In this document: positions 8,035 to 42,477 of the stretch, piece by piece
How positions within the stretch are numbered: the first letter of the stretch is position 1
Layout: every line of letters starts with the position of its first letter
Sequence record: LC473039.1
From: Escherichia phage L27
Direction: 5' to 3' (one strand)
DNA length: 64,000 nt
Notes under the pieces: model-generated
What the model saw: only the letters and a program-made list of their open reading frames with translations
Database searches by the model: none
Told to the model about the DNA's origin: nothing
Translations under genes and position numbers: made by a program

Positions 8035-8355
8035 ATGAGCAAAGTTTATAACACTCGCAAATTACAGATTTTCGTACTGTGCCAGTTTATGGCTAAAGAG
8101 TACAACTTCTACTATTGTGGTACAGGTTTTATTAGCGATGATGATGGCTCATACCTACCATTTAAAGAGGCTGTGAAGCTCTTTAATGAAGAGAAAAGCT
8201 CTAAGAAAGATATTGAAAAGGTTAAGCTAACTTACAGCAAGAAAGATAAGAAGATTATCTGCCTAGATAACTTTGTAAAAGTTACTGGAGAAGCAAAAGA
8301 GTTTATGGATGAGAGTGAGATTTCATTCACAAGCATCTTGAAAGTAGCTGAGTAA
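8035..8355 (+). CDS. hypothetical protein
   Basis: 106 aa ORF followed by terminator hairpin. Confidence 0.5.
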   Translation: MSKVYNTRKLQIFVLCQFMAKEYNFYYCGTGFISDDDGSYLPFKEAVKLFNEEKSSKKDIEKVKLTYSKKDKKIICLDNFVKVTGEAKEFMDESEISFTSILKVAE

Positions 8356-35082: not shown

Positions 35083-36498
35083 ATGAGCGAGTTATTTAAA
35101 CATGCGCACCTTCATGCAGGTCGAACTGAAAATGGTGCTGTAAACCATACTTCATCAATGTCTGCTCTGGTAGACTTCTACAAAGCCGCTGGCTCAAGCC
35201 GTAGCAATGTAGAAATCTTACCAGACCTGTTCTACAAAGCTTTGCGTGAGGATGTTGATGTTGCAGTTCGTATTTTACTGCATATGCGAGATGTACGAGA
35301 AGGTATGGGTGAGCGTAAAGCTTTCCGAACTGTTTTACTTCAAGCGATTGAAGATAAGGTTTTAGAACCTACACAGGTTCTTCGCATTATGGATAAGATT
35401 GCAGAACTTGGTCGTTTTGATGACTTCAAAATCTTCGTAGGTACTCGTTTCGAGACAGATGCCTTCAAACATTTAGAAGCAGCATTACTAGACCCTGCAA
35501 CAGCAGGTTTAGCAGCTAAGTGGTTGCCACGAGTAAAACCACGCCACAAACAGTTTGTAAAACGTTTCTGTAAGTTTGCAAACTTAAGCGAGAAGGAGTA
35601 TCGCACACTGCTATCTGCACTGTCTGATACGGTTGAGCAAAAAATCTCTGCTAATGAGTTTGGTAAGATTGACTACAGCAAGATTCCTTCACTCGCTGCT
35701 GCACGTTACCAAAAGCTCTTTAACCGTAAAGATGGAGAGCGTTACAAAGCTTACATCGAATCATTATCAAAGGGTGAGGTTAAGATTAATGCTGGTGCTG
35801 TTTACCCATATGATGTGATTAAATCTATTAAGTATGGTAATGCAGATGTTGCTAATGAGCAGTGGAAAGCACTTCCAAACTGGATGGCAGAAGGTGAAAA
35901 CATCTTGTGTATGACTGATGTTTCAAGCTCAATGTCTTGGGTGAATCTTGGTTCAATCACTGCCCTTGATATTGGTGTATCACTTGCCTTGTATGTAGCA
36001 GAACGCAATACAGGTTGCTTTAAAGATGAGTTAATGGTCTATTCAACAAACCCTCATTTCATTGAACTGAGTGGTGATTTACGAAACCGTCATCGTCAGG
36101 TAATGCGTCATGTTGAATATGGTTCAACTAACTTACAAGCAGCTTTTGACCGTATTCTTGAGGTAGGTAAGAGAAACAACTTGACTCAGAAAGATATGCC
36201 AAGTAAGCTTATTATCTTCTCTGATATGGAGTTTAATCAGGTTGATGGTGCAAATGGTCGTACAAACTTTGAAGCAATTCAGAGTAAGTACAAAAAAGCT
36301 GGATACGAAATGCCACAACTAGTATTCTGGTACTTAGCAAACCGTAATGGTACTTGCGAAGTATCTGTTAAGGATAATGGTGTAGCAATGGTATCAGGGT
36401 TCTCTCCAGCCACTTTAAAAGCTCTGCTTGGTGGTGAGAAGTTTGACCCAATCAGTGTAATGCTCAAAGCGGTAATGATTGACCGTTATATCTGGTAA
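35083..36498 (+). CDS. von Willebrand factor A (vWA) domain protein with MIDAS motif; N-terminal domain of unknown family
   Basis: MIDAS D-x-S-x-S in MTDVSSSMSW, downstream TNLQAAFD and IIFSDMEFN; 471 aa. Confidence 0.55.
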   Translation: MSELFKHAHLHAGRTENGAVNHTSSMSALVDFYKAAGSSRSNVEILPDLFYKALREDVDVAVRILLHMRDVREGMGERKAFRTVLLQAIEDKVLEPTQVLRIMDKIAELGRFDDFKIFVGTRFETDAFKHLEAALLDPATAGLAAKWLPRVKPRHKQFVKRFCKFANLSEKEYRTLLSALSDTVEQKISANEFGKIDYSKIPSLAAARYQKLFNRKDGERYKAYIESLSKGEVKINAGAVYPYDVIKSIKYGNADVANEQWKALPNWMAEGENILCMTDVSSSMSWVNLGSITALDIGVSLALYVAERNTGCFKDELMVYSTNPHFIELSGDLRNRHRQVMRHVEYGSTNLQAAFDRILEVGKRNNLTQKDMPSKLIIFSDMEFNQVDGANGRTNFEAIQSKYKKAGYEMPQLVFWYLANRNGTCEVSVKDNGVAMVSGFSPATLKALLGGEKFDPISVMLKAVMIDRYIW

Positions 36499-36516
36499 AA
36501 AGTTTTAAAAAGGGTA

Positions 36517-36545
36517 TTGACAATGTGTTTGATACCCTTTAATAT
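36517..36545 (+). promoter_or_regulatory. sigma70-like promoter (TTGACA-N17-TAATAT) upstream of tRNA cluster, flanked by inverted repeat AGGGTAT/ATACCCT
   Basis: AAAAAGGGTATTGACAATGTGTTTGATACCCTTTAATATG. Confidence 0.55.
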
Positions 36546-36607
36546 GTTCTACATAGAAACGAAACGAGAGCTTTTCTAAGATACTGAAAAATATTTTAAA
36601 AAAGTTC

Positions 36608-36636
36608 TTGACAATCACTAAAAAATAATGTTAAAG
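36608..36636 (+). promoter_or_regulatory. sigma70-like promoter (TTGACA-N17-TTAAAG) immediately upstream of first tRNA
   Basis: AAAGTTCTTGACAATCACTAAAAAATAATGTTAAAGTGG. Confidence 0.5.
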
Positions 36637-36663
36637 TGGTTACATAGAGTTTGAAAAGTTTAT

Positions 36664-36740
36664 CTCTGTTTAGCTCAGCTTGGTAGAGCGTTCCGTTTGG
36701 GGCGGTAAGGCCGGAGGTTCAAGTCCTCCAACAGAGACCA
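36664..36740 (+). tRNA. tRNA-Pro (anticodon TGG)
   Basis: Manual fold: acceptor CTCTGTT/AACAGAG, D-arm GCTC/GAGC, T-arm GGAGG-TTCAAGT-CCTCC, CCA encoded. Confidence 0.75.
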
Positions 36741-36747
36741 AATTAAT

Positions 36748-36825
36748 GTTCCAGTAGACAAAATGGTATAGTCACCACTCTTTCAAAGTGGATATTTGAG
36801 GGTTCAAATCCCTTCTGGAACGCCA
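36748..36825 (+). tRNA. tRNA-Glu (anticodon TTC)
   Basis: Acceptor GTTCCAG/CTGGAAC, anticodon arm CCACT-CTTTCAA-AGTGG, T-loop TTCAAAT, CCA. Confidence 0.75.
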
Positions 36826-36916
36826 GTTTTGACAGAAGACCAATTACAGCAAACTTAATCTTATTCATCTGAAGGTAAATCGGACAAAGAAGAGACTTGG
36901 TCTGGTCATTAAGAAT

Positions 36917-36993
36917 TGCGGGTATAGAGAAAGGGCGTCTCACATGTCTCATTAGCATGGTATCGGCAGGTTCGACTCCTGCACCCGCCTCCA
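36917..36993 (+). tRNA. tRNA with CAT anticodon (Met / fMet / Ile-lysidine)
   Basis: Anticodon arm CATGT-CTCATTA-GCATG, T-arm GCAGG-TTCGACT-CCTGC; possible 1:72 mismatch; CCA. Confidence 0.65.
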
Positions 36994-37077
36994 AATTTAC
37001 AGAAGACCGTTTACAGCAAAATTGAATGAAATTTTTAGCGGAAAAATTGAAAGATACGGTCTGGTAATACTAAACAT

Positions 37078-37151
37078 GGTTAGGAAGCACATAAGGTATG
37101 TGCGGTCGCCTGTTAAGCGAATGGCACAGGGTTCGAATCCCTGACTAACCG
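37078..37151 (+). tRNA. tRNA-Asn (anticodon GTT)
   Basis: D-arm GCAC/GTGC, anticodon loop CTGTTAA, T-arm CAGGG-TTCGAAT-CCCTG. Confidence 0.7.
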
Positions 37152-37163
37152 CAAAATTTAAAT

Positions 37164-37251
37164 GTGTCGTTATCCCGTAGATGGTAGCGGTGGGGACTGT
37201 AAATCCCTTGTCATTGAGACTCGGTAGGTTCGACTCCTACACGGCACACCA
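37164..37251 (+). tRNA. tRNA-Tyr (anticodon GTA), long variable arm
   Basis: Acceptor GTGTCGT/ACGGCAC, anticodon loop CTGTAAA, T-arm GTAGG-TTCGACT-CCTAC, CCA. Confidence 0.75.
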
Positions 37252-37273
37252 ACACTTAGCGAGATACTTAGTT

Positions 37274-37702
37274 ATGAGAGATGAAGTATACAAATCACAA
37301 CTTGGTATGAGTTTGGGAACTGCACAAAACAGACTAGTAAAAGATTTGCTATTCGATTTTATATGTAAGACAAATCAAAATAGATGTTTTCAGTGCGGAA
37401 AAGAAATGACTAGGGATGATTTCTCTATCGAGCATAAGATTCCGTGGAGACATAGTGAGAATGCAAAAGAGCTTTTCTTTTCACTAGATAATATTTCTTA
37501 TAGTCATCTTAAATGTAACATGAAAGCAGCAAGACCAGCACAGATAAGTGAAAGAAAACATAAAACAATTAAACACGGAACTGCGTATAGTTATTTTAAA
37601 GGCTGTAGATGCGATGAGTGTAGGTTGGCTAAGAATGCTGAGAGTAGAAGAAACTATAGTCCAGAAAGACGTAGGAAGAAGTATCTAAGAAATGGCACAT
37701 GA
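37274..37702 (+). CDS. HNH homing endonuclease (tRNA-cluster embedded)
   Basis: HNH core SIEHKIPW...SHLKCN; C-terminal YFKGCRCDECR; ORF-track start 37181 overlaps tRNA-Tyr, ATG 37274 used. Confidence 0.7.
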   Translation: MRDEVYKSQLGMSLGTAQNRLVKDLLFDFICKTNQNRCFQCGKEMTRDDFSIEHKIPWRHSENAKELFFSLDNISYSHLKCNMKAARPAQISERKHKTIKHGTAYSYFKGCRCDECRLAKNAESRRNYSPERRRKKYLRNGT

Positions 37703-37705
37703 ATT

Positions 37706-37781
37706 TGGGGTATTAGTTTAGACGGGTAAAATACGGGATTGTCTCTCCTGAGCCGCGAGTTCGATTCTCGCATACCTCGCC
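37706..37781 (+). tRNA. tRNA, anticodon GTC (Asp) or TGT (Thr) depending on fold
   Basis: Acceptor GGGGTAT/ATACCTC, T-arm GCGAG-TTCGATT-CTCGC, CCA; anticodon loop ambiguous. Confidence 0.6.
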
Positions 37782-38212
37782 AATTTTGAGAGGGCTATTT
37801 AGCCCCTCCCTTAAAGGGTTCTTACGAGTATCTTTTAAAGGAGCAGAAGACCAAATACAGCAAGAACGTATGAAAATTTCAAGCCAATTTAATTTTGAAA
37901 AATTTAAAACTTGGTCTGGCTCAACAAATTTACAGAAGACCGTTTACAGCAAAACTTAAACAATCTATTTCTCGGTAAAGAAAAGGCGAAGGTTCGATTC
38001 CTTCACTCGGCAGATGTCGAGTTGGTGTAATGGTAGCACTTAAGATGATAAACAACGGTCTGGTAATTATCTTTGTAGATAAGTTATTAAGCTTACCTGT
38101 GAGTATGCGACCACAAAGGGTGAAAGGGTAAATTCTAGATTTAAACCCAACAAGGCACATCGCTACAGACCTTAAGCAAGTCTGGGTAGCTTATCTACAA
38201 AGATAATTTAAT

Positions 38213-38288
38213 GGAAGTGTAGCAGAATGGTGATGCGGTAGACTTTTAATCTGACAGGCGATGGGTTCGAATCCCTCCACTTCTACCA
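38213..38288 (+). tRNA. tRNA-Lys (anticodon TTT), atypical T-stem
   Basis: Acceptor GGAAGTG/CACTTCT, anticodon loop CTTTTAA, T-loop TTCGAAT, CCA. Confidence 0.55.
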
Positions 38289-38292
38289 AAAT

Positions 38293-38369
38293 GGTTCAGT
38301 CGCAGATAAGGTAATGCAAGGGTCTCATAAGCCCTATGAATGTGGGTTCGATTCCCATCTGAACCTCCA
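38293..38369 (+). tRNA. second tRNA with CAT anticodon (Met/Ile2)
   Basis: Acceptor GGTTCAG/CTGAACC, anticodon arm AGGGT-CTCATAA-GCCCT, T-loop TTCGATT, CCA. Confidence 0.7.
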
Positions 38370-38377
38370 ATTTATAG

Positions 38378-38872
38378 GTGATACTTATGATTTGTGCCAA
38401 CAAAGATTGCAGAAATGAAGCCGTTAAAGGTGGAAAATTTTGCTCACGCTCTTGTTCTGCAAAAGTGAACAACAAGAAACACCCAAAGAGAAGTCAGGAA
38501 GGCTCTTGCCATTCATGCGGAAAGGTAACGCCAAAAGCGAGAAAATACTGTGACGAATGTATTGCAGGTGGAGTCATGAAAAAACATAAGACCCATCATG
38601 AAAAAAGCAAAGCCAAATCACTGCACGTTAAAAAGTCTCGTGACAGACTGAAGAAGGCTTTAGTTGATTACAAGGGTGGTTGTTGTTCAATTTGTGGTTA
38701 CAATAGGTGCATAAAGGCTCTAGAGTTTCACCACTTAGACCCTAAGACAAAAGACTTCACAGTAAGTAAAAAACACTACTCACTGGCTACAATGCAGTCT
38801 GAAGTTGATAAGTGTGTCTTGCTTTGTGCAAATTGCCACAGAGAAGTACACGAAGGGGTAACAATGCTGTGA
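38378..38872 (+). CDS. HNH homing endonuclease (zinc-binding)
   Basis: Multiple CxxC pairs and HNH motif EFHHLDPKTKD...CANCHREVH; RBS AGGTGA. Confidence 0.7.
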   Translation: MILMICANKDCRNEAVKGGKFCSRSCSAKVNNKKHPKRSQEGSCHSCGKVTPKARKYCDECIAGGVMKKHKTHHEKSKAKSLHVKKSRDRLKKALVDYKGGCCSICGYNRCIKALEFHHLDPKTKDFTVSKKHYSLATMQSEVDKCVLLCANCHREVHEGVTML

Positions 38873-38941
38873 AAGCACATATGGATGTGCATTCGGCTGA
38901 TAACCGAAAGGCAGAAGGTTCAAATCCTTCTCACAGTACCA
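38866..38941 (+). tRNA. tRNA-Ile (anticodon GAT)
   Basis: Start overlaps HNH stop codon; D-arm GCAC/GTGC, anticodon arm TTCGG-CTGATAA-CCGAA, T-arm GAAGG-TTCAAAT-CCTTC, CCA. Confidence 0.75.
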
Positions 38942-38956
38942 ATTTCAATAAAGTTG

Positions 38957-38985
38957 TTGACATTGAGATGTGACTACTTTATAGT
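38957..38985 (+). promoter_or_regulatory. strong sigma70 consensus promoter (TTGACA-N17-TATAGT) inside tRNA cluster
   Basis: GTTGTTGACATTGAGATGTGACTACTTTATAGTAACC; ~200-nt untranslated leader before next tRNA. Confidence 0.6.
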
Positions 38986-39189
38986 AACCTTAGTTTTCGT
39001 TGCGTAGCGTCTATTTTGCAAATTTAAAATAAATGCAAACGACAATGTTTTTCTGGCAGTAGCTTGATAGGCTAAACACCAGTGAGGTCTTCCAATCCCT
39101 CATCAAAGAATTTGGCGTACTCGCCCACGGTATGATTAATAAGGTGGGCATCTTTAAGGGCTTTCTAAGAGAGTCTTTAAAGATAATTA

Positions 39190-39271
39190 CGGGGCGTATC
39201 TCAGCGGTCTTCTAAACCGCCGTTAACCGAGTAAGTGGAGTATGCGGGTTCGAGTCCTGCCGCCTCGACCA
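39190..39271 (+). tRNA. atypical tRNA-like gene (possible tRNA-Arg, anticodon TCT; D-arm not resolvable)
   Basis: Good acceptor CGGGGCG/CGCCTCG, T-arm GCGGG-TTCGAGT-CCTGC and CCA; perfect stem-loop GCGGT-CTTCTAA-ACCGC but spacing non-canonical. Confidence 0.4.
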
Positions 39272-39414
39272 ATTTAGTTAGCAGATTACTTAGACGACCT
39301 AAGCGGGTCTTCCTGTAGGGAGGTGGTCTGTATCTCATGTTTTCCAGAACATGTAAATAATCTGAGAAGGGGCTTTACAGTGTTGAGATAATACGGTAAG
39401 CTTCGAATTATAGT

Positions 39415-39497
39415 ATGGGACGATGTTAAGACTCTAAGGCATGAGCAACGGCTTCCAACACCGTTTCAAAGGGGTTCAACTCCTCCGTCCCATGCCA
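39415..39497 (+). tRNA. tRNA-Trp (anticodon CCA) candidate with enlarged D region
   Basis: Acceptor ATGGGAC/GTCCCAT perfect, anticodon region ACGG-CTTCCAACA-CCGT resembles Trp arm, T-loop TTCAACT, CCA. Confidence 0.5.
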
Positions 39498-39510
39498 AAG
39501 TCTTATTAGG

Positions 39511-39600
39511 GGTAGGTAGCGGCTAATGGTAGCCAAACAGTCTTGAAAACTGTTGCCACTGTAGAGATACGGTGAGGGTTCGACTCCTTTACTTACCGCC
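39511..39600 (+). tRNA. tRNA-Ser (anticodon TGA), long variable arm
   Basis: Anticodon arm ACAGT-CTTGAAA-ACTGT, variable arm ~20 nt, T-loop TTCGACT. Confidence 0.7.
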
Positions 39601-39854
39601 TAATAAGATTTTACACCGTCCATGCTTGCTCGCATTTTCGGTTTATCCCTCGTGTATTGTCGTACACTGATAAAGCACCTAGTAGGTGTCACGGAGAAGA
39701 GATAATATCAAGCTCTCCAAAGGTTCTAGTCACCGGATTAAACAAGACTATGCAAAGACCAAATTAGGTCTTTTTAGAGGGCTTCTAAGGTTATTACAGC
39801 TTGTTGTGGAACCTTGTTGCTTAGGTTCTTAGAAGTTCTCTAAAAAGATTTAAT

Positions 39855-39932
39855 GGGAGATTGACGGTAATTGGTAAACCTATCTCGCTTAGAACGAGAT
39901 GTTTGAGGGTTCGAATCCCTTGTCTCCTACCA
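39855..39932 (+). tRNA. tRNA with anticodon TAG (Leu) but short variable arm
   Basis: Anticodon arm TCTCG-CTTAGAA-CGAGA, T-arm GAGGG-TTCGAAT-CCCTT, CCA. Confidence 0.55.
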
Positions 39933-39939
39933 AATTAAT

Positions 39940-40015
39940 GCAGGTGTAGCAAAATGGTTATGCGGCTGACTCTTAATCAGTAAGACGATGGGTTCAATTC
40001 CCTCCACCTGTACCA
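39940..40015 (+). tRNA. tRNA-Lys (anticodon CTT), atypical T-stem shared with Lys-TTT
   Basis: Acceptor GCAGGTG/CACCTGT, anticodon arm GCTGA-CTCTTAA-TCAGT, CCA. Confidence 0.55.
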
Positions 40016-40021
40016 GACATT

Positions 40022-40097
40022 GGGGATGTAGTTTACATGGTTAAAACATAAGTTTTGCAAACTTAAGTACAGGGTTCAATTCCCTGCTTCTCCACCA
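40022..40097 (+). tRNA. tRNA-Ala (anticodon TGC)
   Basis: D-arm GTTT/AAAC, anticodon arm TAAGT-TTTGCAA-ACTTA, T-arm CAGGG-TTCAATT-CCCTG, CCA. Confidence 0.65.
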
Positions 40098-40103
40098 ATT
40101 AGT

Positions 40104-40178
40104 GCATCCATAGTTTAAACGGGAAAATTGCAGTCTTCCAAACTGAGGTTGAGGGTTCGATTCCCTCTGGATGCTCCA
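40104..40178 (+). tRNA. tRNA-Gly (anticodon TCC)
   Basis: Acceptor GCATCCA/TGGATGC, anticodon loop CTTCCAA, T-arm GAGGG-TTCGATT-CCCTC, CCA. Confidence 0.7.
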
Positions 40179-40184
40179 AATAAA

Positions 40185-40261
40185 GCTGCTTTCGTATAAT
40201 TGGCTATTACACATCCCTTGTAAGGATGGAAATGCAGGTTCGAGTCCTGTGAGCAGCACCA
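40185..40261 (+). tRNA. tRNA-Thr (anticodon TGT)
   Basis: Anticodon arm CATCC-CTTGTAA-GGATG, T-loop TTCGAGT, CCA. Confidence 0.75.
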
Positions 40262-40356
40262 ATTCAGAGGTCAAGTGAAAGACCGCTGGTGTCAACTGAA
40301 GACCGTAACAAATTCCACGGAGTTGAGTTAGCGGCACAACTTCAGACCTCTTTCAC

Positions 40357-40431
40357 ACTCGCTTAGTTTATATGGTAAAACATCACCCTTACAAGATGAA
40401 GAAAAAGGTTCAAGTCCTTTAGTGAGTACCA
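40357..40431 (+). tRNA. tRNA-Val (anticodon TAC)
   Basis: D-arm GTTT/AAAC, anticodon loop CTTACAA, T-arm AAAGG-TTCAAGT-CCTTT, CCA. Confidence 0.65.
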
Positions 40432-40432
40432 T

Positions 40433-40510
40433 GTTCCAGTATCCCAATTGGCAGAGGATGCAAGCTCAAACCTTGTATTAGTGACGGTTCGAATCCGTCT
40501 TGGAACACCA
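40433..40510 (+). tRNA. tRNA with anticodon CAA (Leu) but short variable arm
   Basis: Acceptor GTTCCAG/TTGGAAC, anticodon arm GCAAG-CTCAAAC-CTTGT, T-arm GACGG-TTCGAAT-CCGTC, CCA. Confidence 0.55.
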
Positions 40511-40529
40511 ATTTTAAGAGGCTATTTAG

Positions 40530-41087
40530 ATGAGATATTTGAAGTATGCTTCATGGATTTTCCTAGCTTTACTAGAGCCATTTGCAGCAACCCTAGCAGT
40601 CATCTTAGCACCTTTCGTAGTCCCATTCTACAGTGAGAAGAAAGGGCATCTACCTTTTGGATTCAGATGGATGGAGACCTATGACAACCCGATTGATGGT
40701 GATGAAGGCCACGTTAAAAGATGGGCTAAGATTAGAAAGATTGGTAAGCTGGGTGTCTACATGCAGAGAGTTGGGTGGCTCTGGAGAAACAAAGCTTATA
40801 ACTTCTCTTACCATGTATTAGGAAGAGATGTAAAAGATGTTACTAAGTGGAAAGGTAATATCAACGTAAGTTCTAACCCTGAAGATAATCAAACAGGTTA
40901 TCTCCTAATGTGGAACAGAAATGCTTGGGGTTTATTTGCTTTTATCCCATCAATTAAAGTCTTTGGTAAACAGTTTTACTGGAGAATTTATATTGGATGG
41001 AAACTAAAAAGTGTTGTCCCAGAAGAAAGAGCATTCTCAAGGGAAAGAGTTATGTTGGCATTCTTTATTCATCCACTGAGAAAGTAA
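40530..41087 (+). CDS. hypothetical membrane protein encoded inside the tRNA cluster
   Basis: 185 aa, N-terminal TM helix, Trp/Arg-rich; no overlap with tRNAs. Confidence 0.45.
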   Translation: MRYLKYASWIFLALLEPFAATLAVILAPFVVPFYSEKKGHLPFGFRWMETYDNPIDGDEGHVKRWAKIRKIGKLGVYMQRVGWLWRNKAYNFSYHVLGRDVKDVTKWKGNINVSSNPEDNQTGYLLMWNRNAWGLFAFIPSIKVFGKQFYWRIYIGWKLKSVVPEERAFSRERVMLAFFIHPLRK

Positions 41088-41095
41088 AGATTTAA

Positions 41096-41171
41096 AGGGG
41101 ATTAGTTTACAAGGTTAAAACCTCGGTCTTTGAAATCGAAGAAGTTGGTTCAATTCCAACATCCCCCGCCA
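41096..41171 (+). tRNA. tRNA-Gln (anticodon TTG)
   Basis: D-arm GTTT/AAAC, anticodon arm TCGGT-CTTTGAA-ATCGA, T-arm GTTGG-TTCAATT-CCAAC, CCA. Confidence 0.65.
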
Positions 41172-41173
41172 AT

Positions 41174-41252
41174 GCTCCATTACTCCAATTGGCAGAGAGG
41201 CCAGACTTAAAATCTGTGTTATGTATCGGTTCGAATCCGATATGGAGTACCA
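41174..41252 (+). tRNA. tRNA with anticodon TAA (Leu), short variable arm
   Basis: Acceptor GCTCCAT/ATGGAGT, anticodon loop CTTAAAA, T-arm ATCGG-TTCGAAT-CCGAT, CCA. Confidence 0.55.
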
Positions 41253-41257
41253 AATTT

Positions 41258-41333
41258 AGCGGTATAGCATAACTGGCAATGCAGCAGTCTCTGAAGCTGT
41301 CCTATTAAGGTTCAAATCCTTATGCCGCTGCCA
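41258..41333 (+). tRNA. tRNA-Gln (anticodon CTG)
   Basis: D-arm GCAT/ATGC, anticodon loop CTCTGAA, T-arm TAAGG-TTCAAAT-CCTTA, CCA. Confidence 0.65.
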
Positions 41334-41364
41334 CTTCTAAGGGTTCTTACGAGAGTCCTTAAAT

Positions 41365-41440
41365 GTGGCCTTATCATAAATGGTAATGACCCATGCTGTG
41401 AACATGGTCTATACGGGTTCAAATCCCGTAGGTCACCCCA
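41365..41440 (+). tRNA. tRNA-His (anticodon GTG)
   Basis: Anticodon arm CCATG-CTGTGAA-CATGG, T-arm ACGGG-TTCAAAT-CCCGT, CCA. Confidence 0.75.
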
Positions 41441-41445
41441 ATTTA

Positions 41446-41521
41446 TAGTCCAAGTAGCTTATATGGTAAAGCGCGTGTCTGAAAAACATGAGAAGAGGGT
41501 TCAAATCCCACTGGACTACCA
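41446..41521 (+). tRNA. tRNA-Phe (anticodon GAA)
   Basis: D-arm GCTT/AAGC, anticodon arm CGTGT-CTGAAAA-ACATG, T-loop TTCAAAT; acceptor pairing imperfect in manual fold. Confidence 0.6.
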
Positions 41522-41537
41522 ATTTCAAAGGTGCTTA

Positions 41538-42272
41538 ATGAAAGAGATGACAGAACAAGGTAAGGAGATTTTTAATCTCTTAAAAACCGGTAAAGGGTTT
41601 TCTAACCCACTTATTACTGGTGCAGCAGTTCTCGGTGGAACCGTAGCTGCCTCTACATCACTTGTAAACTCTATTAGTTCTGTAACAGACCCTACAATGA
41701 AGGATAAACTTGTTGCTGCTGGACTTACAACAGTCCTTCTAAACAGCTTTACAACAAGCCTTACAAGCACTACAGCAACTACTAAGACCCTAACAGACTA
41801 CGGTCAAAAGTCTATTGATGAGTTTTCATCACGTATGCAGGTAGCAAAGGGATACTCCAATGTTATGGGTGCAGCAGGAGAACAAGTTGGTTGTACACCA
41901 TTCAGTGGTATTATGGGTGTTGCTACAGAGTATGGTCAAAAAGCTATTGACACGATTAACAGTACACTGGATAGTGTTAATGATGTGTTAAGTGACTTAC
42001 AAGATGCTATTGATAAGGGTCTTGATACTGTTTCTGATTTAGCTAACCAAGCTGTAAGTAAAATTAATGAAGGTATTTCAAAGATTACAGCTTATGCAGA
42101 TGAAGTTGTGCAGATGATTGAAGAAGAAGCTGCACTTATTGCAGAGTACCTTAAAACGAATATCAATGGGTTCTTAGCAGGTATCTTACCAGACTGGTTT
42201 GATGATGCTTGCAAAACTGGTGTAATTGACACTATTGCAACACCAGAAATGAAGAACGCATTACAGAAATAA
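41538..42272 (+). CDS. hypothetical Ser/Thr-rich protein (possible virion-associated)
   Basis: ATG 41538; ORF-track start 41322 overlaps four tRNAs and is rejected. Confidence 0.5.
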   Translation: MKEMTEQGKEIFNLLKTGKGFSNPLITGAAVLGGTVAASTSLVNSISSVTDPTMKDKLVAAGLTTVLLNSFTTSLTSTTATTKTLTDYGQKSIDEFSSRMQVAKGYSNVMGAAGEQVGCTPFSGIMGVATEYGQKAIDTINSTLDSVNDVLSDLQDAIDKGLDTVSDLANQAVSKINEGISKITAYADEVVQMIEEEAALIAEYLKTNINGFLAGILPDWFDDACKTGVIDTIATPEMKNALQK

Positions 42273-42273
42273 T

Positions 42274-42366
42274 GGAAGATTAACCCTAAAAGGTAAGGGA
42301 GCAGTTTGCTAAACTGCCAGTAGCTGAGAAATCGGTGTACCAGTTCAAGTCTGGTATCTTCCTCCA
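42274..42366 (+). tRNA. tRNA-Ser (anticodon GCT), long variable arm
   Basis: Acceptor GGAAGAT/ATCTTCC perfect, anticodon arm GCAGT-TTGCTAA-ACTGC, T-arm ACCAG-TTCAAGT-CTGGT, CCA. Confidence 0.75.
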
Positions 42367-42370
42367 ATTT

Positions 42371-42446
42371 GAATCCGTGACAGAAATGGCTATGTGCCTG
42401 TCTGCAAAACAGGTTTATAAGGGTTCGAGTCCCTTCGGATTCTCCA
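42371..42446 (+). tRNA. tRNA-Cys (anticodon GCA)
   Basis: Acceptor GAATCCG/CGGATTC perfect, anticodon arm CCTGT-CTGCAAA-ACAGG, T-arm AAGGG-TTCGAGT-CCCTT, CCA. Confidence 0.75.
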
Positions 42447-42477
42447 AGTTATTTTACTCTCTCTCAATTAAAAATAA

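What the first reader, a model, noticed from the sequence alone, without database searches (positions are those of the whole stretch)
36660..42450. tRNA cluster (~26 genes) with two HNH endonucleases, an internal promoter and recurring spacer motifs
Tandem tRNAs mostly with encoded CCA and 5-7 nt spacers. Two HNH endonuclease genes sit between tRNAs, one overlapping the start of tRNA-Ile. Longer spacers repeat the element ACAGAAGACC-N3-TACAGCAAA ... CTTGGTCTGG (36832, 36999, 37845, 37934, 40298), able to form AGACC/GGTCT hairpins. These may be processing signals or remnants of endonuclease-mediated insertions.
Basis: partly seen in the sequence, partly recalled or inferred. Interest (0 to 1): 0.5.

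Follow-up and report, generated by a model that had tools for sequence, protein, structure and literature searches.

The report
Phage Y-like RNAs inside tRNA array
The repeated "spacer motif" in this Felix O1-type phage tRNA cluster marks four small structured RNA genes, one a tRNA mimic, of a widespread, apparently undescribed RNA family that sits beside genes for a Ro60-like RNA-binding protein in many unrelated phages.

Summary
The window is a Felix O1-like phage (95-97% identity). The observation largely holds: 24 tRNAs (22 with encoded CCA), two HNH genes (one overlapping tRNA-Ile by 7 nt), and an 11/12 promoter match. The motif is real but has four copies, not five (0.22 expected).

Each copy is a stem-closed RNA: AG-N5-N-UACAGCAA ... 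N5'-CU-G. Stems differ between paralogs by compensatory changes.

The gene just upstream (35083-36498, DUF2828+DUF7788) has a Ro60 fold (AlphaFold pLDDT 90; top 12 PDB matches all Ro60/TROVE).

In 78 unrelated phage loci carrying this gene, TACAGCAA is the most enriched 8-mer beside it. A covariance model built only from those loci ranks E1-E3 as the top three hits in the 64-kb window. All 65 of its hits elsewhere lie on the gene's strand, 55 within 500 nt. Two relatives without the gene have tRNA arrays but no elements.

E4 carries a T-arm / closed acceptor stem / D-arm module in YrlA order.

Best reading: Y-RNA-like partners of a phage Ro60-like protein, matured with the tRNAs. Binding is inferred, not shown. 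The core resembles Dictyostelium Class I RNAs but scores below Rfam's threshold.

The parts
35083..36498 (+). Gene for a 471-aa Ro60-like protein (Pfam DUF2828 + DUF7788; vWA MIDAS motif D279-S281-S283), the proposed protein partner of the RNAs
   Evidence: Pfam and PHROG 850 'RNA-binding protein'. AlphaFold2 with 61 homologues gives pLDDT 90.1 and pTM 0.89. The top 12 Foldseek PDB hits are all full-length Ro60/TROVE, E=7.5e-8 to 2e-6, TM up to 0.66. The Bas63 homologue gp130 was reported as Ro60-like and as a counter to the Ppl defence system.
36517..36637 (+). Two sigma-70-like promoter matches (36517-36545 and 36608-36637) between the Ro60-like gene and the first tRNA; the first lies inside a terminator-like hairpin (36509-36540)
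   Evidence: Consensus scan. The same hairpin-embedded TTGACA layout is seen after the homologous gene in L005 and L090. Consensus matches only.
36664..42446 (+). tRNA array: 24 canonical tRNA genes, 22 with encoded CCA
   Evidence: ARAGORN, Rfam, CCA and spacer table. The gene order is the same as in Felix O1.
36830..36908 (+). E1: small RNA between tRNA-Glu and tRNA-Met. Core 36836-36903 = AGACCAA-U-UACAGCAA...UUGGUCU-G; outer 4-bp stem UGAC/GUCA across an AGA/G internal loop
   Evidence: Fold, strict descriptor, model R1 29.3 bits, E=8e-5, the best hit in the window.
36997..37067 (+). E2: small RNA between tRNA-Met and tRNA-Asn. Core 37003-37062 = AGACCGU-U-UACAGCAA...ACGGUCU-G; outer stem UUAC/GUAA
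   Evidence: R1 26.1 bits, E=4.8e-4.
37841..37922 (+). E3: small RNA after tRNA-Asp. Core 37847-37917 = AGACCAA-A-UACAGCAA...UUGGUCU-G; outer stem GAGC/GCUC
   Evidence: R1 23.9 bits, E=1.7e-3. An orthologue is kept in L088, whose protein is 62% identical. The outer stem covaries.
37930..38066 (+). E4: long paralogue with a tRNA-like interior. Core 37936-38061; extra hairpin, T-arm 37988-38004, loop-closed acceptor-like stem 38005-38022, D-arm 38024-38040
   Evidence: The unconstrained minimum-energy fold gives this layout. Rfam gives a partial tRNA T-arm hit at 37984-38004. The acceptor-like stem has three different sequences in the window, Mijalis and KMM2, all paired. The same architecture in Klebsiella phage FBKp34 scores 39.6 bits against Rfam YrlA.
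37274..37702 (+). HNH endonuclease gene 1 (between tRNA-Tyr and tRNA-Asp); an insertion that Felix O1 lacks
   Evidence: Pfam HNH and PHROG 23251. Tyr and Asp are adjacent in Felix O1. Only 21 records cover at least 80% of the 36826-38212 query.
38378..38872 (+). HNH endonuclease gene 2, whose 3' end overlaps tRNA-Ile by 7 nt
   Evidence: PHROG 2255 E=2.4e-36; coordinates; same arrangement in Felix O1 ORF44.
38957..38985 (+). Internal sigma-70-like promoter match TTGACA-17-TATAGT
   Evidence: 11 of 12 positions; conserved in phage KMM2. Consensus match only.

Best explanation
E1-E4 are genes for small non-coding RNAs of about 60-135 nt. They are the RNA partners, in the sense of Y RNAs, of the Ro60-like protein encoded just upstream at 35083-36498.

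Architecture. All four share one core. The RNA ends pair in a 7-bp helix that starts with A-U and G-C pairs. The helix is followed on the 5' side by single-stranded (N)UACAGCAA and on the 3' side by an unpaired G. In this phage the helix is extended by an AGA/G internal loop and 4 more base pairs. Three copies have short variable interiors. The fourth, E4, replaces the interior with a tRNA mimic made of a T-arm, a loop-closed acceptor stem and a D-arm. That is the layout of bacterial YrlA.

Proposed mechanism. The RNAs are transcribed from the sigma-70-like promoters after the Ro60-like gene as part of the tRNA precursor. They are released by the nucleases that cut out the flanking tRNAs (RNase P at the downstream tRNA 5' ends, 3' trimming upstream). 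The protein then binds them through the helix and the UACAGCAA motif. By analogy with Ro60/Y RNA particles, the variable modules would gate the protein ring or tether it to other factors such as exoribonucleases or tRNA-recognising enzymes, acting in RNA surveillance or counter-defence during infection.

Shown: the RNA family, its structure, its tight genomic linkage to the gene, and the protein's Ro60 fold.

Inferred: expression, processing, physical binding and the downstream function.

The tRNA array and the two HNH genes are ordinary, already known features of Felix O1-type phages.
For: Protein. The AlphaFold2 model has pLDDT 90.1. The 12 best PDB matches are all full-length Ro60/TROVE, including a Thermus phage Ro60; the next hits are isolated vWA domains. 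Mycobacteriophage homologues (33% identity) are annotated 'Ro-like RNA binding protein' and are also DUF2828+DUF7788.

Paralogue covariation. The outer stems are UGAC/GUCA, UUAC/GUAA and GAGC/GCUC, and the inner stems end in ..CCAA/UUGG.. or ..CCGU/ACGG... In Mooglevirus the variants AGGCC and AGACU against GGUCU are compatible with G.U pairs only on the + strand RNA.

Linkage across unrelated phages. In the 800-nt flanks of the gene in 78 loci, TACAGCAA is the top-enriched 8-mer (63 observed, 3.4 expected). TACAGCA on the gene's strand occurs 73 times against 9.8 expected (P about 4e-38), and 9 times on the other strand. The stem descriptor is met by 33 of 73 near-gene instances and 6 of 118 controls.

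Independent model. Model R1 was built only from non-Felix elements. Its top three hits in the whole window are E1, E2 and E3. In 81 loci that carry the gene it gives 65 hits in 44 loci, all on the gene's strand. Of these, 55 lie within 500 nt of the gene and 14 lie within about 70 nt upstream of the estimated start codon.

Natural knock-outs. Pectobacterium phage Arno18 (8-kb locus examined) and Erwinia phage phiEa21-4 (whole genome examined) keep the tRNA array and the neighbouring DUF5681 gene. They lack the Ro60-like gene, have no R1 hit and have no motif in the tRNA region.

tRNA-like subclass. It recurs beside the gene in Klebsiella phage FBKp34 (Rfam YrlA 39.6 bits, E=2e-5), a mycobacteriophage and three metagenomic phages. 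The E4 acceptor-like stem covaries.

Literature. YrlA has the T / acceptor-stem / D order between the strands of a terminal stem (PMC4201824). Bas63 gp130 is Ro60-like, counters the Ppl defence, and its authors guessed that some downstream 'tRNAs' might be Y RNAs. Thermus phage Ro60 binds two phage Y-like RNAs and host PNPase (PMC12135203).
Against: There is no expression, end-mapping or binding data.

The window's elements score nothing against Rfam YrlA. The family lacks the sequence of the canonical Ro60-binding helix.

The protein is not detectable as TROVE by sequence: the profile against PDB sequences gives E=0.86.

Fold z-scores of E1-E4 alone are weak, -0.5 to -1.8.

Stem statistics on alignment A2 are partly circular, because its members were chosen by a pairing descriptor.

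Only 44 of 81 gene-bearing loci have a model hit. Some related phages carry diverged motifs (UUCAGCAA, UACCGCAA) or only one element.

In many phages an element lies within about 70 nt upstream of the gene's estimated start codon, which also fits a purely cis-regulatory role.
Confidence: 0.68

Rival explanations
1. The elements are cis-acting RNA signals rather than trans-acting partner RNAs. They would be binding sites through which the Ro60-like protein, or a host factor, controls translation or stability of its own mRNA and of the tRNA precursor, for example by autoregulation or by processing and stability determinants.
For: 14 of 65 model hits end within about 70 nt upstream of the DUF2828 start codon, some directly abutting the Shine-Dalgarno sequence. 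In the window they lie inside a polycistronic tRNA precursor.
Against: In the window they lie 340-1,570 nt downstream of the gene, separated from it by promoters and tRNAs, so they cannot regulate its translation in cis. There are several tandem paralogues with variable effector-like interiors, one a tRNA mimic, as with YrlA and YrlB. The family also occurs where no tRNA lies within 11 kb. This reading still implies protein binding and overlaps with the best explanation.
Confidence: 0.17
2. One reading: the repeats are scars or target sites left by HNH homing-endonuclease insertions, or generic RNase processing signals of the tRNA cluster.
For: HNH genes are presence/absence polymorphisms in the spacers of this array. 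The elements lie in the longer spacers.
Against: The elements are present and conserved where no HNH gene is nearby, in Felix O1, Mijalis and KMM2. They are absent from the tRNA arrays of Arno18 and phiEa21-4, although Arno18 has ORFs between its tRNAs. They are linked to the DUF2828 gene in tRNA-free loci. They show RNA-type covariation and strict strand bias.
Confidence: 0.03
3. The elements are decayed tRNA genes or fragments (pseudogenes) with no function of their own. The shared ends would reflect recent duplication.
For: E4 contains a T-arm and a D-arm. The array also holds atypical or degenerate tRNA-like genes at 39190-39268 and 39415-39498.
Against: The T / acceptor / D order is circularly permuted relative to a tRNA and cannot arise by simple decay. 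The module is conserved with compensatory changes. E1-E3 have no tRNA features. The same core recurs in phages of Aeromonas, Klebsiella and Mycobacterium and in marine and other metagenomes, with entirely different stems.
Confidence: 0.04
4. The motif acts at the DNA level, as a phage-specific promoter, operator or replication/packaging site.
For: The motif is a conserved 8-9-mer with fixed neighbours. Some copies sit just upstream of a gene.
Against: All 65 hits lie on one strand relative to the gene. A distant complementary strand is always present and its sequence covaries, including G.U pairs. Copies lie both up- and downstream of the gene, and between tRNAs.
Confidence: 0.03

Closest known systems
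Bacterial and phage Ro60 (Rsr) with Y RNAs YrlA/YrlB (Rfam RF02553; Chen et al. 2014, PMC4201824; Thermus phage phiLo Ro60 with Yrl1/Yrl2, PMC12135203)
   Same: A Ro60-fold protein (HEAT ring plus vWA) is encoded next to several small RNAs whose 5' and 3' ends form a stem. One RNA carries a tRNA-like domain in the order T-arm, loop-closed acceptor stem, D-arm. Shorter paralogues lie alongside, comparable to YrlB.
   Different: By sequence the protein belongs to DUF2828/DUF7788, not Pfam TROVE. The RNAs carry a different conserved element, single-stranded UACAGCAA beside an AG...CU-G helix. The window's RNAs do not match the Rfam YrlA model. They are interleaved with tRNA genes in one array.
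Dictyostelium Class I RNAs (Rfam RF01414; Kjellin et al. 2021, PMC7919456)
   Same: Length 42-65 nt. A 6-bp terminal stem of variable, covarying sequence. The motif (C)CUUACAGCAA directly 3' of the 5' strand. A conserved 5' G and 3' CUG. A variable A/U-rich interior. RF01414 is the family with repeated sub-threshold hits on the phage elements: 7 hits of 15.5-30.7 bits.
   Different: They are eukaryotic nuclear genes with their own DUSE promoter and a known RRM partner (Rnp1A), and were reported as restricted to Dictyostelia. The phage RNAs stay below the gathering score of 41.5. The Felix O1 versions are longer, have an extended bulged stem, and do not hit RF01414 at all. Homology versus convergence is open.
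Felix O1 / T5-type phage tRNA clusters with free-standing HNH homing endonucleases (Felix O1 genome NC_005282; from my own knowledge, the T5 tRNA-region endonucleases F-TflI to F-TflIV)
   Same: A dense same-strand tRNA array with encoded CCA. HNH genes are inserted between tRNAs and vary in presence between close relatives.
   Different: Nothing material. This part of the finding is already known biology; it is annotated in Felix O1 RefSeq.
Small stable RNAs co-transcribed in the phage T4 tRNA cluster (species 1 and 2, rnaC/rnaD; from my own knowledge, not tested here)
   Same: Non-tRNA small RNAs are embedded in a phage tRNA operon and are presumably released by tRNA-processing nucleases.
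   Different: No sequence or structural comparison was made. T4 is not known to encode a DUF2828 or Ro60-like protein. This is a lead only.

Membership tests
Ro60 / TROVE-vWA protein family (for ORF 35083-36498) | Full-length fold: alpha-helical HEAT-repeat ring followed by a vWA domain | tested here: met
   The AlphaFold2 model has pLDDT 90.1. The Foldseek top 12 PDB hits are all Ro60/TROVE over about 520-565 aligned columns, E=7.5e-8 to 2e-6, TM 0.46-0.66.
Ro60 / TROVE-vWA protein family (for ORF 35083-36498) | Sequence match to the Pfam TROVE domain or to solved Ro60 sequences | tested here: not met
   Pfam gives only DUF2828 and DUF7788. A 61-sequence profile against PDB sequences gives Ro60 at E=0.86 and TROVE at E=2.1, around the vWA MIDAS motif only.
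Ro60 / TROVE-vWA protein family (for ORF 35083-36498) | vWA MIDAS motif DxSxS | tested here: met
   D279, S281 and S283 are invariant in 61 homologues and align with the Ro60 MIDAS motif.
Y RNA / YrlA (RF02553) (for E4) | Encoded next to a Ro60 orthologue, with 5' and 3' ends forming a terminal stem | tested here: met
   E4 starts about 1.4 kb downstream of the Ro60-fold gene on the same strand. It has a terminal 8-bp plus 4-bp helix.
Y RNA / YrlA (RF02553) (for E4) | tRNA-like domain in the order T-arm, closed acceptor-like stem, D-arm (T-loop UUCGA, D-loop GG) | tested here: met
   The minimum-energy fold gives this layout. The T-arm matches the Rfam tRNA model. The acceptor-like stem covaries between the window, Mijalis and KMM2. 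The order agrees with Chen 2014.
Y RNA / YrlA (RF02553) (for E4) | Score at or above the Rfam gathering threshold (69 bits) | tested here: not met
   There is no YrlA hit in the window even at E up to 10. The homologous element in phage FBKp34 scores 39.6 bits.
Y RNA / YrlA (RF02553) (for E4) | Physical binding to the Ro60 protein | not testable with these tools
   This needs a pull-down or gel-shift experiment.
Dictyostelium Class I RNA (RF01414) (for E1-E3 and the phage family) | Short terminal stem plus the CCUUACAGCAA motif next to the 5' strand; conserved 5' G and 3' end; 42-65 nt | tested here: inconclusive
   The phage family has AG-N5-N-UACAGCAA...N5'-CU-G. The 23 short members (70 nt or less) used to build the model are 38-66 nt. 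The window's copies are 60-71 nt (E4 is 126 nt) with an extended stem. The features resemble Class I RNAs, but the linker and first motif bases differ.
Dictyostelium Class I RNA (RF01414) (for E1-E3 and the phage family) | Score at or above the Rfam gathering threshold (41.5 bits) | tested here: not met
   The best phage hit is 30.7 bits. There are none in 14 loci at the gathering threshold and none in the window.
DUF2828-associated UACAGCAA stem RNAs (family defined here, model R1) | Match to a covariance model built only from elements of unrelated phages | tested here: met
   E1 scores 29.3 bits, E2 26.1 and E3 23.9, the top three hits in 64 kb on both strands. E4 matches only in its 5' half (13.2 bits) because of its long insert.
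DUF2828-associated UACAGCAA stem RNAs (family defined here, model R1) | Same strand as, and close to, a DUF2828 gene; absent when the gene is absent | tested here: met
   65 of 65 hits lie on the gene's strand and 55 are within 500 nt. There are no hits in Arno18 or phiEa21-4.
Phage tRNA gene cluster | Tandem same-strand tRNA genes recognised by standard predictors | tested here: met
   24 by ARAGORN and 21 by the Rfam tRNA model above its gathering score, plus 2 best matched to tRNA-Sec. The region is 95-97% identical to the Felix O1 region.
HNH homing endonuclease | HNH catalytic motif, and presence/absence polymorphism between close relatives | tested here: met
   Pfam and PHROG hits. HNH#1 is missing in Felix O1. 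Felix O1 carries two other HNH genes that are absent here. Cleavage activity was not tested.

The most novel reading that the evidence does not exclude
The UACAGCAA stem RNAs and DUF2828-type Ro60-like proteins form an old, previously unrecognised ribonucleoprotein class shared by phages and eukaryotes. On this reading the orphan Class I RNAs of Dictyostelium, reported as unique to social amoebae, would be its eukaryotic members. They would then be Y-RNA-like ligands of a DUF2828 protein (from my own recollection, the Pfam entry for DUF2828 lists eukaryotic as well as viral members) or derive from a viral source.
Probability: 0.18. Interest if true: 0.85.

Novelty: new variant of a known kind. 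Interest (0 to 1): 0.66.

Why it matters
Ro60/Y-RNA particles are known from animals, some bacteria and a few phages. The DUF2828 proteins, present in at least 709 sequenced phage genomes, had no known RNA partner.

A 2024 preprint showed that the Felix O1-type homologue (Bas63 gp130) counteracts a bacterial defence system. It only guessed that Y RNAs might hide among the tRNAs.

This work names candidate RNAs with exact coordinates and a simple sequence rule, AG-stem-UACAGCAA...stem-CU-G, plus a tRNA-mimic variant. That makes the hypothesis directly testable by pull-down, deletion and RNA sequencing.

It also provides a search model that finds such RNAs in roughly half of the gene-bearing phage loci examined.

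It raises a testable link to the long-unexplained Class I RNAs of Dictyostelium.

The tRNA array and the HNH genes themselves are ordinary.

Tried and rejected
- Single-sequence AlphaFold2 failed (pLDDT 44). It was repeated with an alignment.
- Sequence searches of the protein against PDB, NCBIfam and Pfam TROVE gave nothing significant.
- Rfam does not place the window's elements in any family. At the gathering threshold it found no Class I or YrlA hits in 14 loci.
- The claimed fifth motif copy at 40298 was rejected.
- The weak model hit at window 8223-8289 lies inside a 106-aa ORF and is taken as chance.
- My first loose stem test (5 bp or more, G.U allowed) did not separate real instances from controls. 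It was replaced by the stricter descriptor.
- I tried to find out whether Dictyostelium encodes a DUF2828 protein or pulled one down with Class I RNA. The AlphaFold DB library is not installed, the Avesson 2011 paper is not held, and literature searches on DUF2828, UCP015417 and Dictyostelium+Ro60 were uninformative.
- A literature search for the motif string returned only primers and the Fragrep paper on the Dictyostelium motif.
- The supplement of Chen 2014 listing phage YrlAs is not held. I therefore cannot say whether any DUF2828-linked tRNA-like RNA, for example in cluster-L mycobacteriophages, was already counted there.

Full report
**What the window is**

The region is 95-97% identical to Salmonella phage Felix O1 and its relatives (Felixounavirus, Ounavirinae). 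The Felix O1 RefSeq record shows the same layout: a DUF5681 gene, an 'RNA-binding protein' gene, a tRNA array with HNH endonuclease genes, a DUF7217 gene and the terminase.

**Check of the observation**

- tRNAs. ARAGORN tRNAs, all on the + strand, at 36664-42446. Rfam agrees and adds one marginal tRNA hit at 39190-39268 (31.7 bits).
- CCA and spacers. 22 of 24 tRNAs end in encoded CCA, and twelve junctions have spacers of 1-11 nt.
- HNH genes. Both are real. The second ends 7 nt inside tRNA-Ile.
- Promoter. An 11/12 match to the sigma-70 consensus lies at 38957-38985. Promoter-like sites as a class are not above chance here.
- Motif. CAGAAGACC-N3-TACAGCAA occurs four times, at 36833, 37000, 37844 and 37933, against 0.22 expected. 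Each copy has a downstream GGTCTGG.
- Fifth copy. The copy claimed at 40298 does not match. That spacer folds into a different hairpin.

**Anatomy of the four elements**

Unconstrained folding closes all four elements in the same way:

- an outer 4-bp helix: UGAC/GUCA, UUAC/GUAA, GAGC/GCUC and UUAC/GUAA;
- an asymmetric internal loop, AGA opposite G;
- a 7-8-bp helix, AGACC(AA or GU)/(UU or AC)GGUCU;
- single-stranded (U/A)UACAGCAA directly after the 5' strand.

The differences between the paralogues are compensatory. In Mooglevirus phages two copies read AGGCC or AGACU opposite GGUCU, which gives G.U pairs only in the + strand RNA.

E4 is longer. Its interior folds into an extra hairpin, a T-arm (GAAGGUUCGAUUCCUUC, 37988-38004), an acceptor-like stem closed by a loop (38005-38022) and a D-arm (GUGUAAUGGUAGCAC, 38024-38040). 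This T / acceptor / D order between the strands of a terminal stem defines bacterial YrlA Y RNAs (PMC4201824).

In an alignment with Felix O1, Mijalis, KMM2 and a more distant relative, the acceptor-like stem has three different sequences and all of them pair.

**The neighbouring gene**

ORF 35083-36498 (471 aa) matches Pfam DUF2828 and DUF7788 and PHROG 850 'RNA-binding protein'. Sequence searches do not reach solved structures.

An AlphaFold2 model built with 61 homologues is confident (pLDDT 90.1, pTM 0.89). Its twelve best PDB matches are all full-length Ro60/TROVE proteins: Thermus phage phiLo, Xenopus, human and Deinococcus (E=7.5e-8 to 2e-6, TM up to 0.66). After those come only isolated vWA domains.

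Homologues occur in 709 phage records. They include cluster-L mycobacteriophages, where the gene is annotated 'Ro-like RNA binding protein' and is also DUF2828+DUF7788.

**Linkage of the RNA and the gene across phages**

Klebsiella phage FBKp34 encodes a protein 52% identical to the window's. The 480 nt between that gene and its tRNA array hold three elements of the form stem-UUACAGCAA...stem-UG.

- The third has a T-arm, a closed acceptor stem and a D-arm. It scores 39.6 bits (E=2e-5) against Rfam YrlA, below the gathering score of 69.
- The short ones give sub-threshold hits to Rfam Dicty_Class_I_RNA. So do elements beside the gene in Aeromonas phage LAh_6.

I then fetched 80 viral-contig loci carrying a homologue and analysed the 78 loci held so far whose protein is less than 80% identical to the window's.

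- TACAGCA on the gene's strand occurs 73 times within 800 nt of the gene against 9.8 expected (P about 4e-38). It occurs 9 times on the other strand.
- TACAGCAA is the most enriched of all 8-mers there (63 against 3.4).
- The sequences share the pattern AG-N5-N-UACAGCAA, a variable stretch, then N5'-CU-G. They often come as two tandem copies about 60 nt apart.
- A strict descriptor is met by 33 of 73 near-gene instances and 6 of 118 controls. In the window it is met by exactly E1-E4, against 0.093 in shuffles.

A covariance model (R1) was built from 23 short elements taken only from non-Felix loci.

- In the whole window, on both strands, it ranks E1 (29.3 bits), E2 (26.1) and E3 (23.9) first.
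- Over 82 loci searched (81 of them carrying the gene) it gives 65 hits in 44 loci. All are on the gene's strand, 55 lie within 500 nt, 42 are not training sequences, and 14 lie within about 70 nt upstream of the estimated start codon.

Two Ounavirinae lack the gene at the syntenic position: Pectobacterium phage Arno18 (only the 8-kb locus was examined) and Erwinia phage phiEa21-4 (whole genome checked). Both keep the tRNA array but have no model hit and no motif in it.

More distant relatives that keep the gene keep elements at the same array positions, with different but still complementary stems. An example is AGAAUC/GAUUCU with UUCAGCAA in L090.

The tRNA-like subclass recurs in a mycobacteriophage and three metagenomic phages.

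**Interpretation**

Taken together, these results show a conserved, strand-specific, structured RNA family that is co-inherited with a Ro60-fold protein gene.

The most economical mechanism is that these RNAs are the protein's Y-RNA-like ligands. In this phage they would be made as part of the tRNA precursor and freed by tRNA-processing nucleases. The protein would bind the helix plus the UACAGCAA motif. The variable interiors, including the tRNA mimic, would act as effector modules.

Binding, processing and function are inferences. The position of some copies just upstream of the gene's start codon in other phages suggests autoregulation through the same site. That also argues for direct protein recognition, but it leaves room for a partly cis-regulatory role.

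- The elements do not depend on HNH genes.
- They occur where there are no tRNAs.
- They are missing from tRNA arrays that lack the gene.
- tRNA order is unchanged relative to Felix O1. Only the HNH genes and one tRNA-Arg differ in presence.

**Comparison with what is known**

The system works like Ro60/Y RNA (YrlA/YrlB), but it fails two membership tests: the protein is not TROVE by sequence, and the RNAs do not reach the Rfam YrlA score.

The core closely resembles Dictyostelium Class I RNAs. Those are 42-65 nt, with a 6-bp covarying terminal stem, the motif CCUUACAGCAA beside the 5' strand and conserved ends, and they were reported as unique to Dictyostelia (PMC7919456). The phage RNAs score at most 30.7 bits against a gathering score of 41.5. 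I could not check whether Dictyostelium has a DUF2828 protein.

I found no description of this RNA family in Rfam 15 or in the searchable literature.

**Verdict**

The tRNA array and the HNH genes are known features. The spacer motif is real and marks a new variant of the Ro60/Y-RNA theme that is widespread in phages and directly testable.

Noticed in passing
window 38063-38211: An RNA hairpin of about 145 nt with a 24-bp stem lies directly after E4. It is very stable (z = -5.7) and is conserved in Felix O1, Mooglevirus and a relative whose protein is 62% identical, with at least 8 compensatory pairs and a variable interior. Function unknown; no Rfam match.
   Followed up: partly
window 39190-39268: A marginal tRNA (Rfam 31.7 bits; not called by ARAGORN). 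Alignment with Mooglevirus suggests a deletion hybrid. The anticodon arm of tRNA-Arg(UCU) appears fused to the T-arm and 3' acceptor strand of a downstream tRNA-like element. The acceptor stem still pairs (CGGGGCG/CGCCUCG), but there is no D-arm.
   Followed up: partly
window 39415-39498: A conserved tRNA-like element that no predictor calls. It has an 8-bp acceptor stem plus GCCA, a T-arm, and an anticodon-like stem (AACGG/CCGUU) that covaries in phage KMM2 (GUAAG/CUUAC). Its loop has 9 nt, CUUCCAACA, containing CCA. It may be a non-canonical tRNA-Trp; the array otherwise lacks Trp.
   Followed up: partly
window 37808-37840 and 41335-41364 (compare 39150-39184): A second repeated spacer element: short hairpins with the conserved loop GGUUCUUACGAG(A/U)(G/A)U. 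The 18-mer occurs twice in 64 kb against 0 expected. It is also conserved upstream of E3 in relatives. Role unknown.
   Followed up: partly
window 38999-39150: A conserved non-coding stretch after the internal promoter. It contains a hairpin whose stem covaries between the window (GUGAGG/CCCUCAU) and Mooglevirus (GCAGGG/CCCCUGU) around the loop UCUUCCAA. There are only weak tmRNA-like Rfam hits.
   Followed up: no
window 40262-40356: The Thr-Val spacer folds into a 95-nt hairpin (z = -3.0). It shares GAAGACCGT with E2 and E4 but has neither UACAGCAA nor the GGUCU partner. It may be a decayed relative or unrelated.
   Followed up: partly
L005 8003-8116 (Klebsiella phage vB_KpM_FBKp34): The annotated 114-nt 'tRNA-Asp' carries a 40-nt insert between the D-arm and the anticodon arm. 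The insert consists of a hairpin followed by UUUACAGCA, so it looks like a tRNA carrying the family motif.
   Followed up: no
L014 4276-4371, L015 3133-3233, L019 149-281, L022 1265-1374, L033 4734-4829: A subclass of long UACAGCAA elements shares a conserved internal module, CCUUUCUGGAGGGGAAAGCAAAAACUCGCCAAAA. This suggests a third effector type besides the short and tRNA-like forms.
   Followed up: no
window 40511-40529 versus L001 7034-7109: Felix O1 has a tRNA-Arg between tRNA-Leu(CAA) and the DUF7338 gene. It is absent from the window, where only 19 nt lie at that position. Felix O1 also carries two HNH genes (ORF45, ORF47) that are absent here, and it lacks the window's HNH#1.
   Followed up: partly
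L091/L092 (Erwinia phage phiEa21-4): This Ounavirinae phage lacks the Ro60-like gene and the elements, but it encodes a tRNA nucleotidyltransferase and a polynucleotide kinase. This may be a different solution for tRNA maintenance.
   Followed up: no
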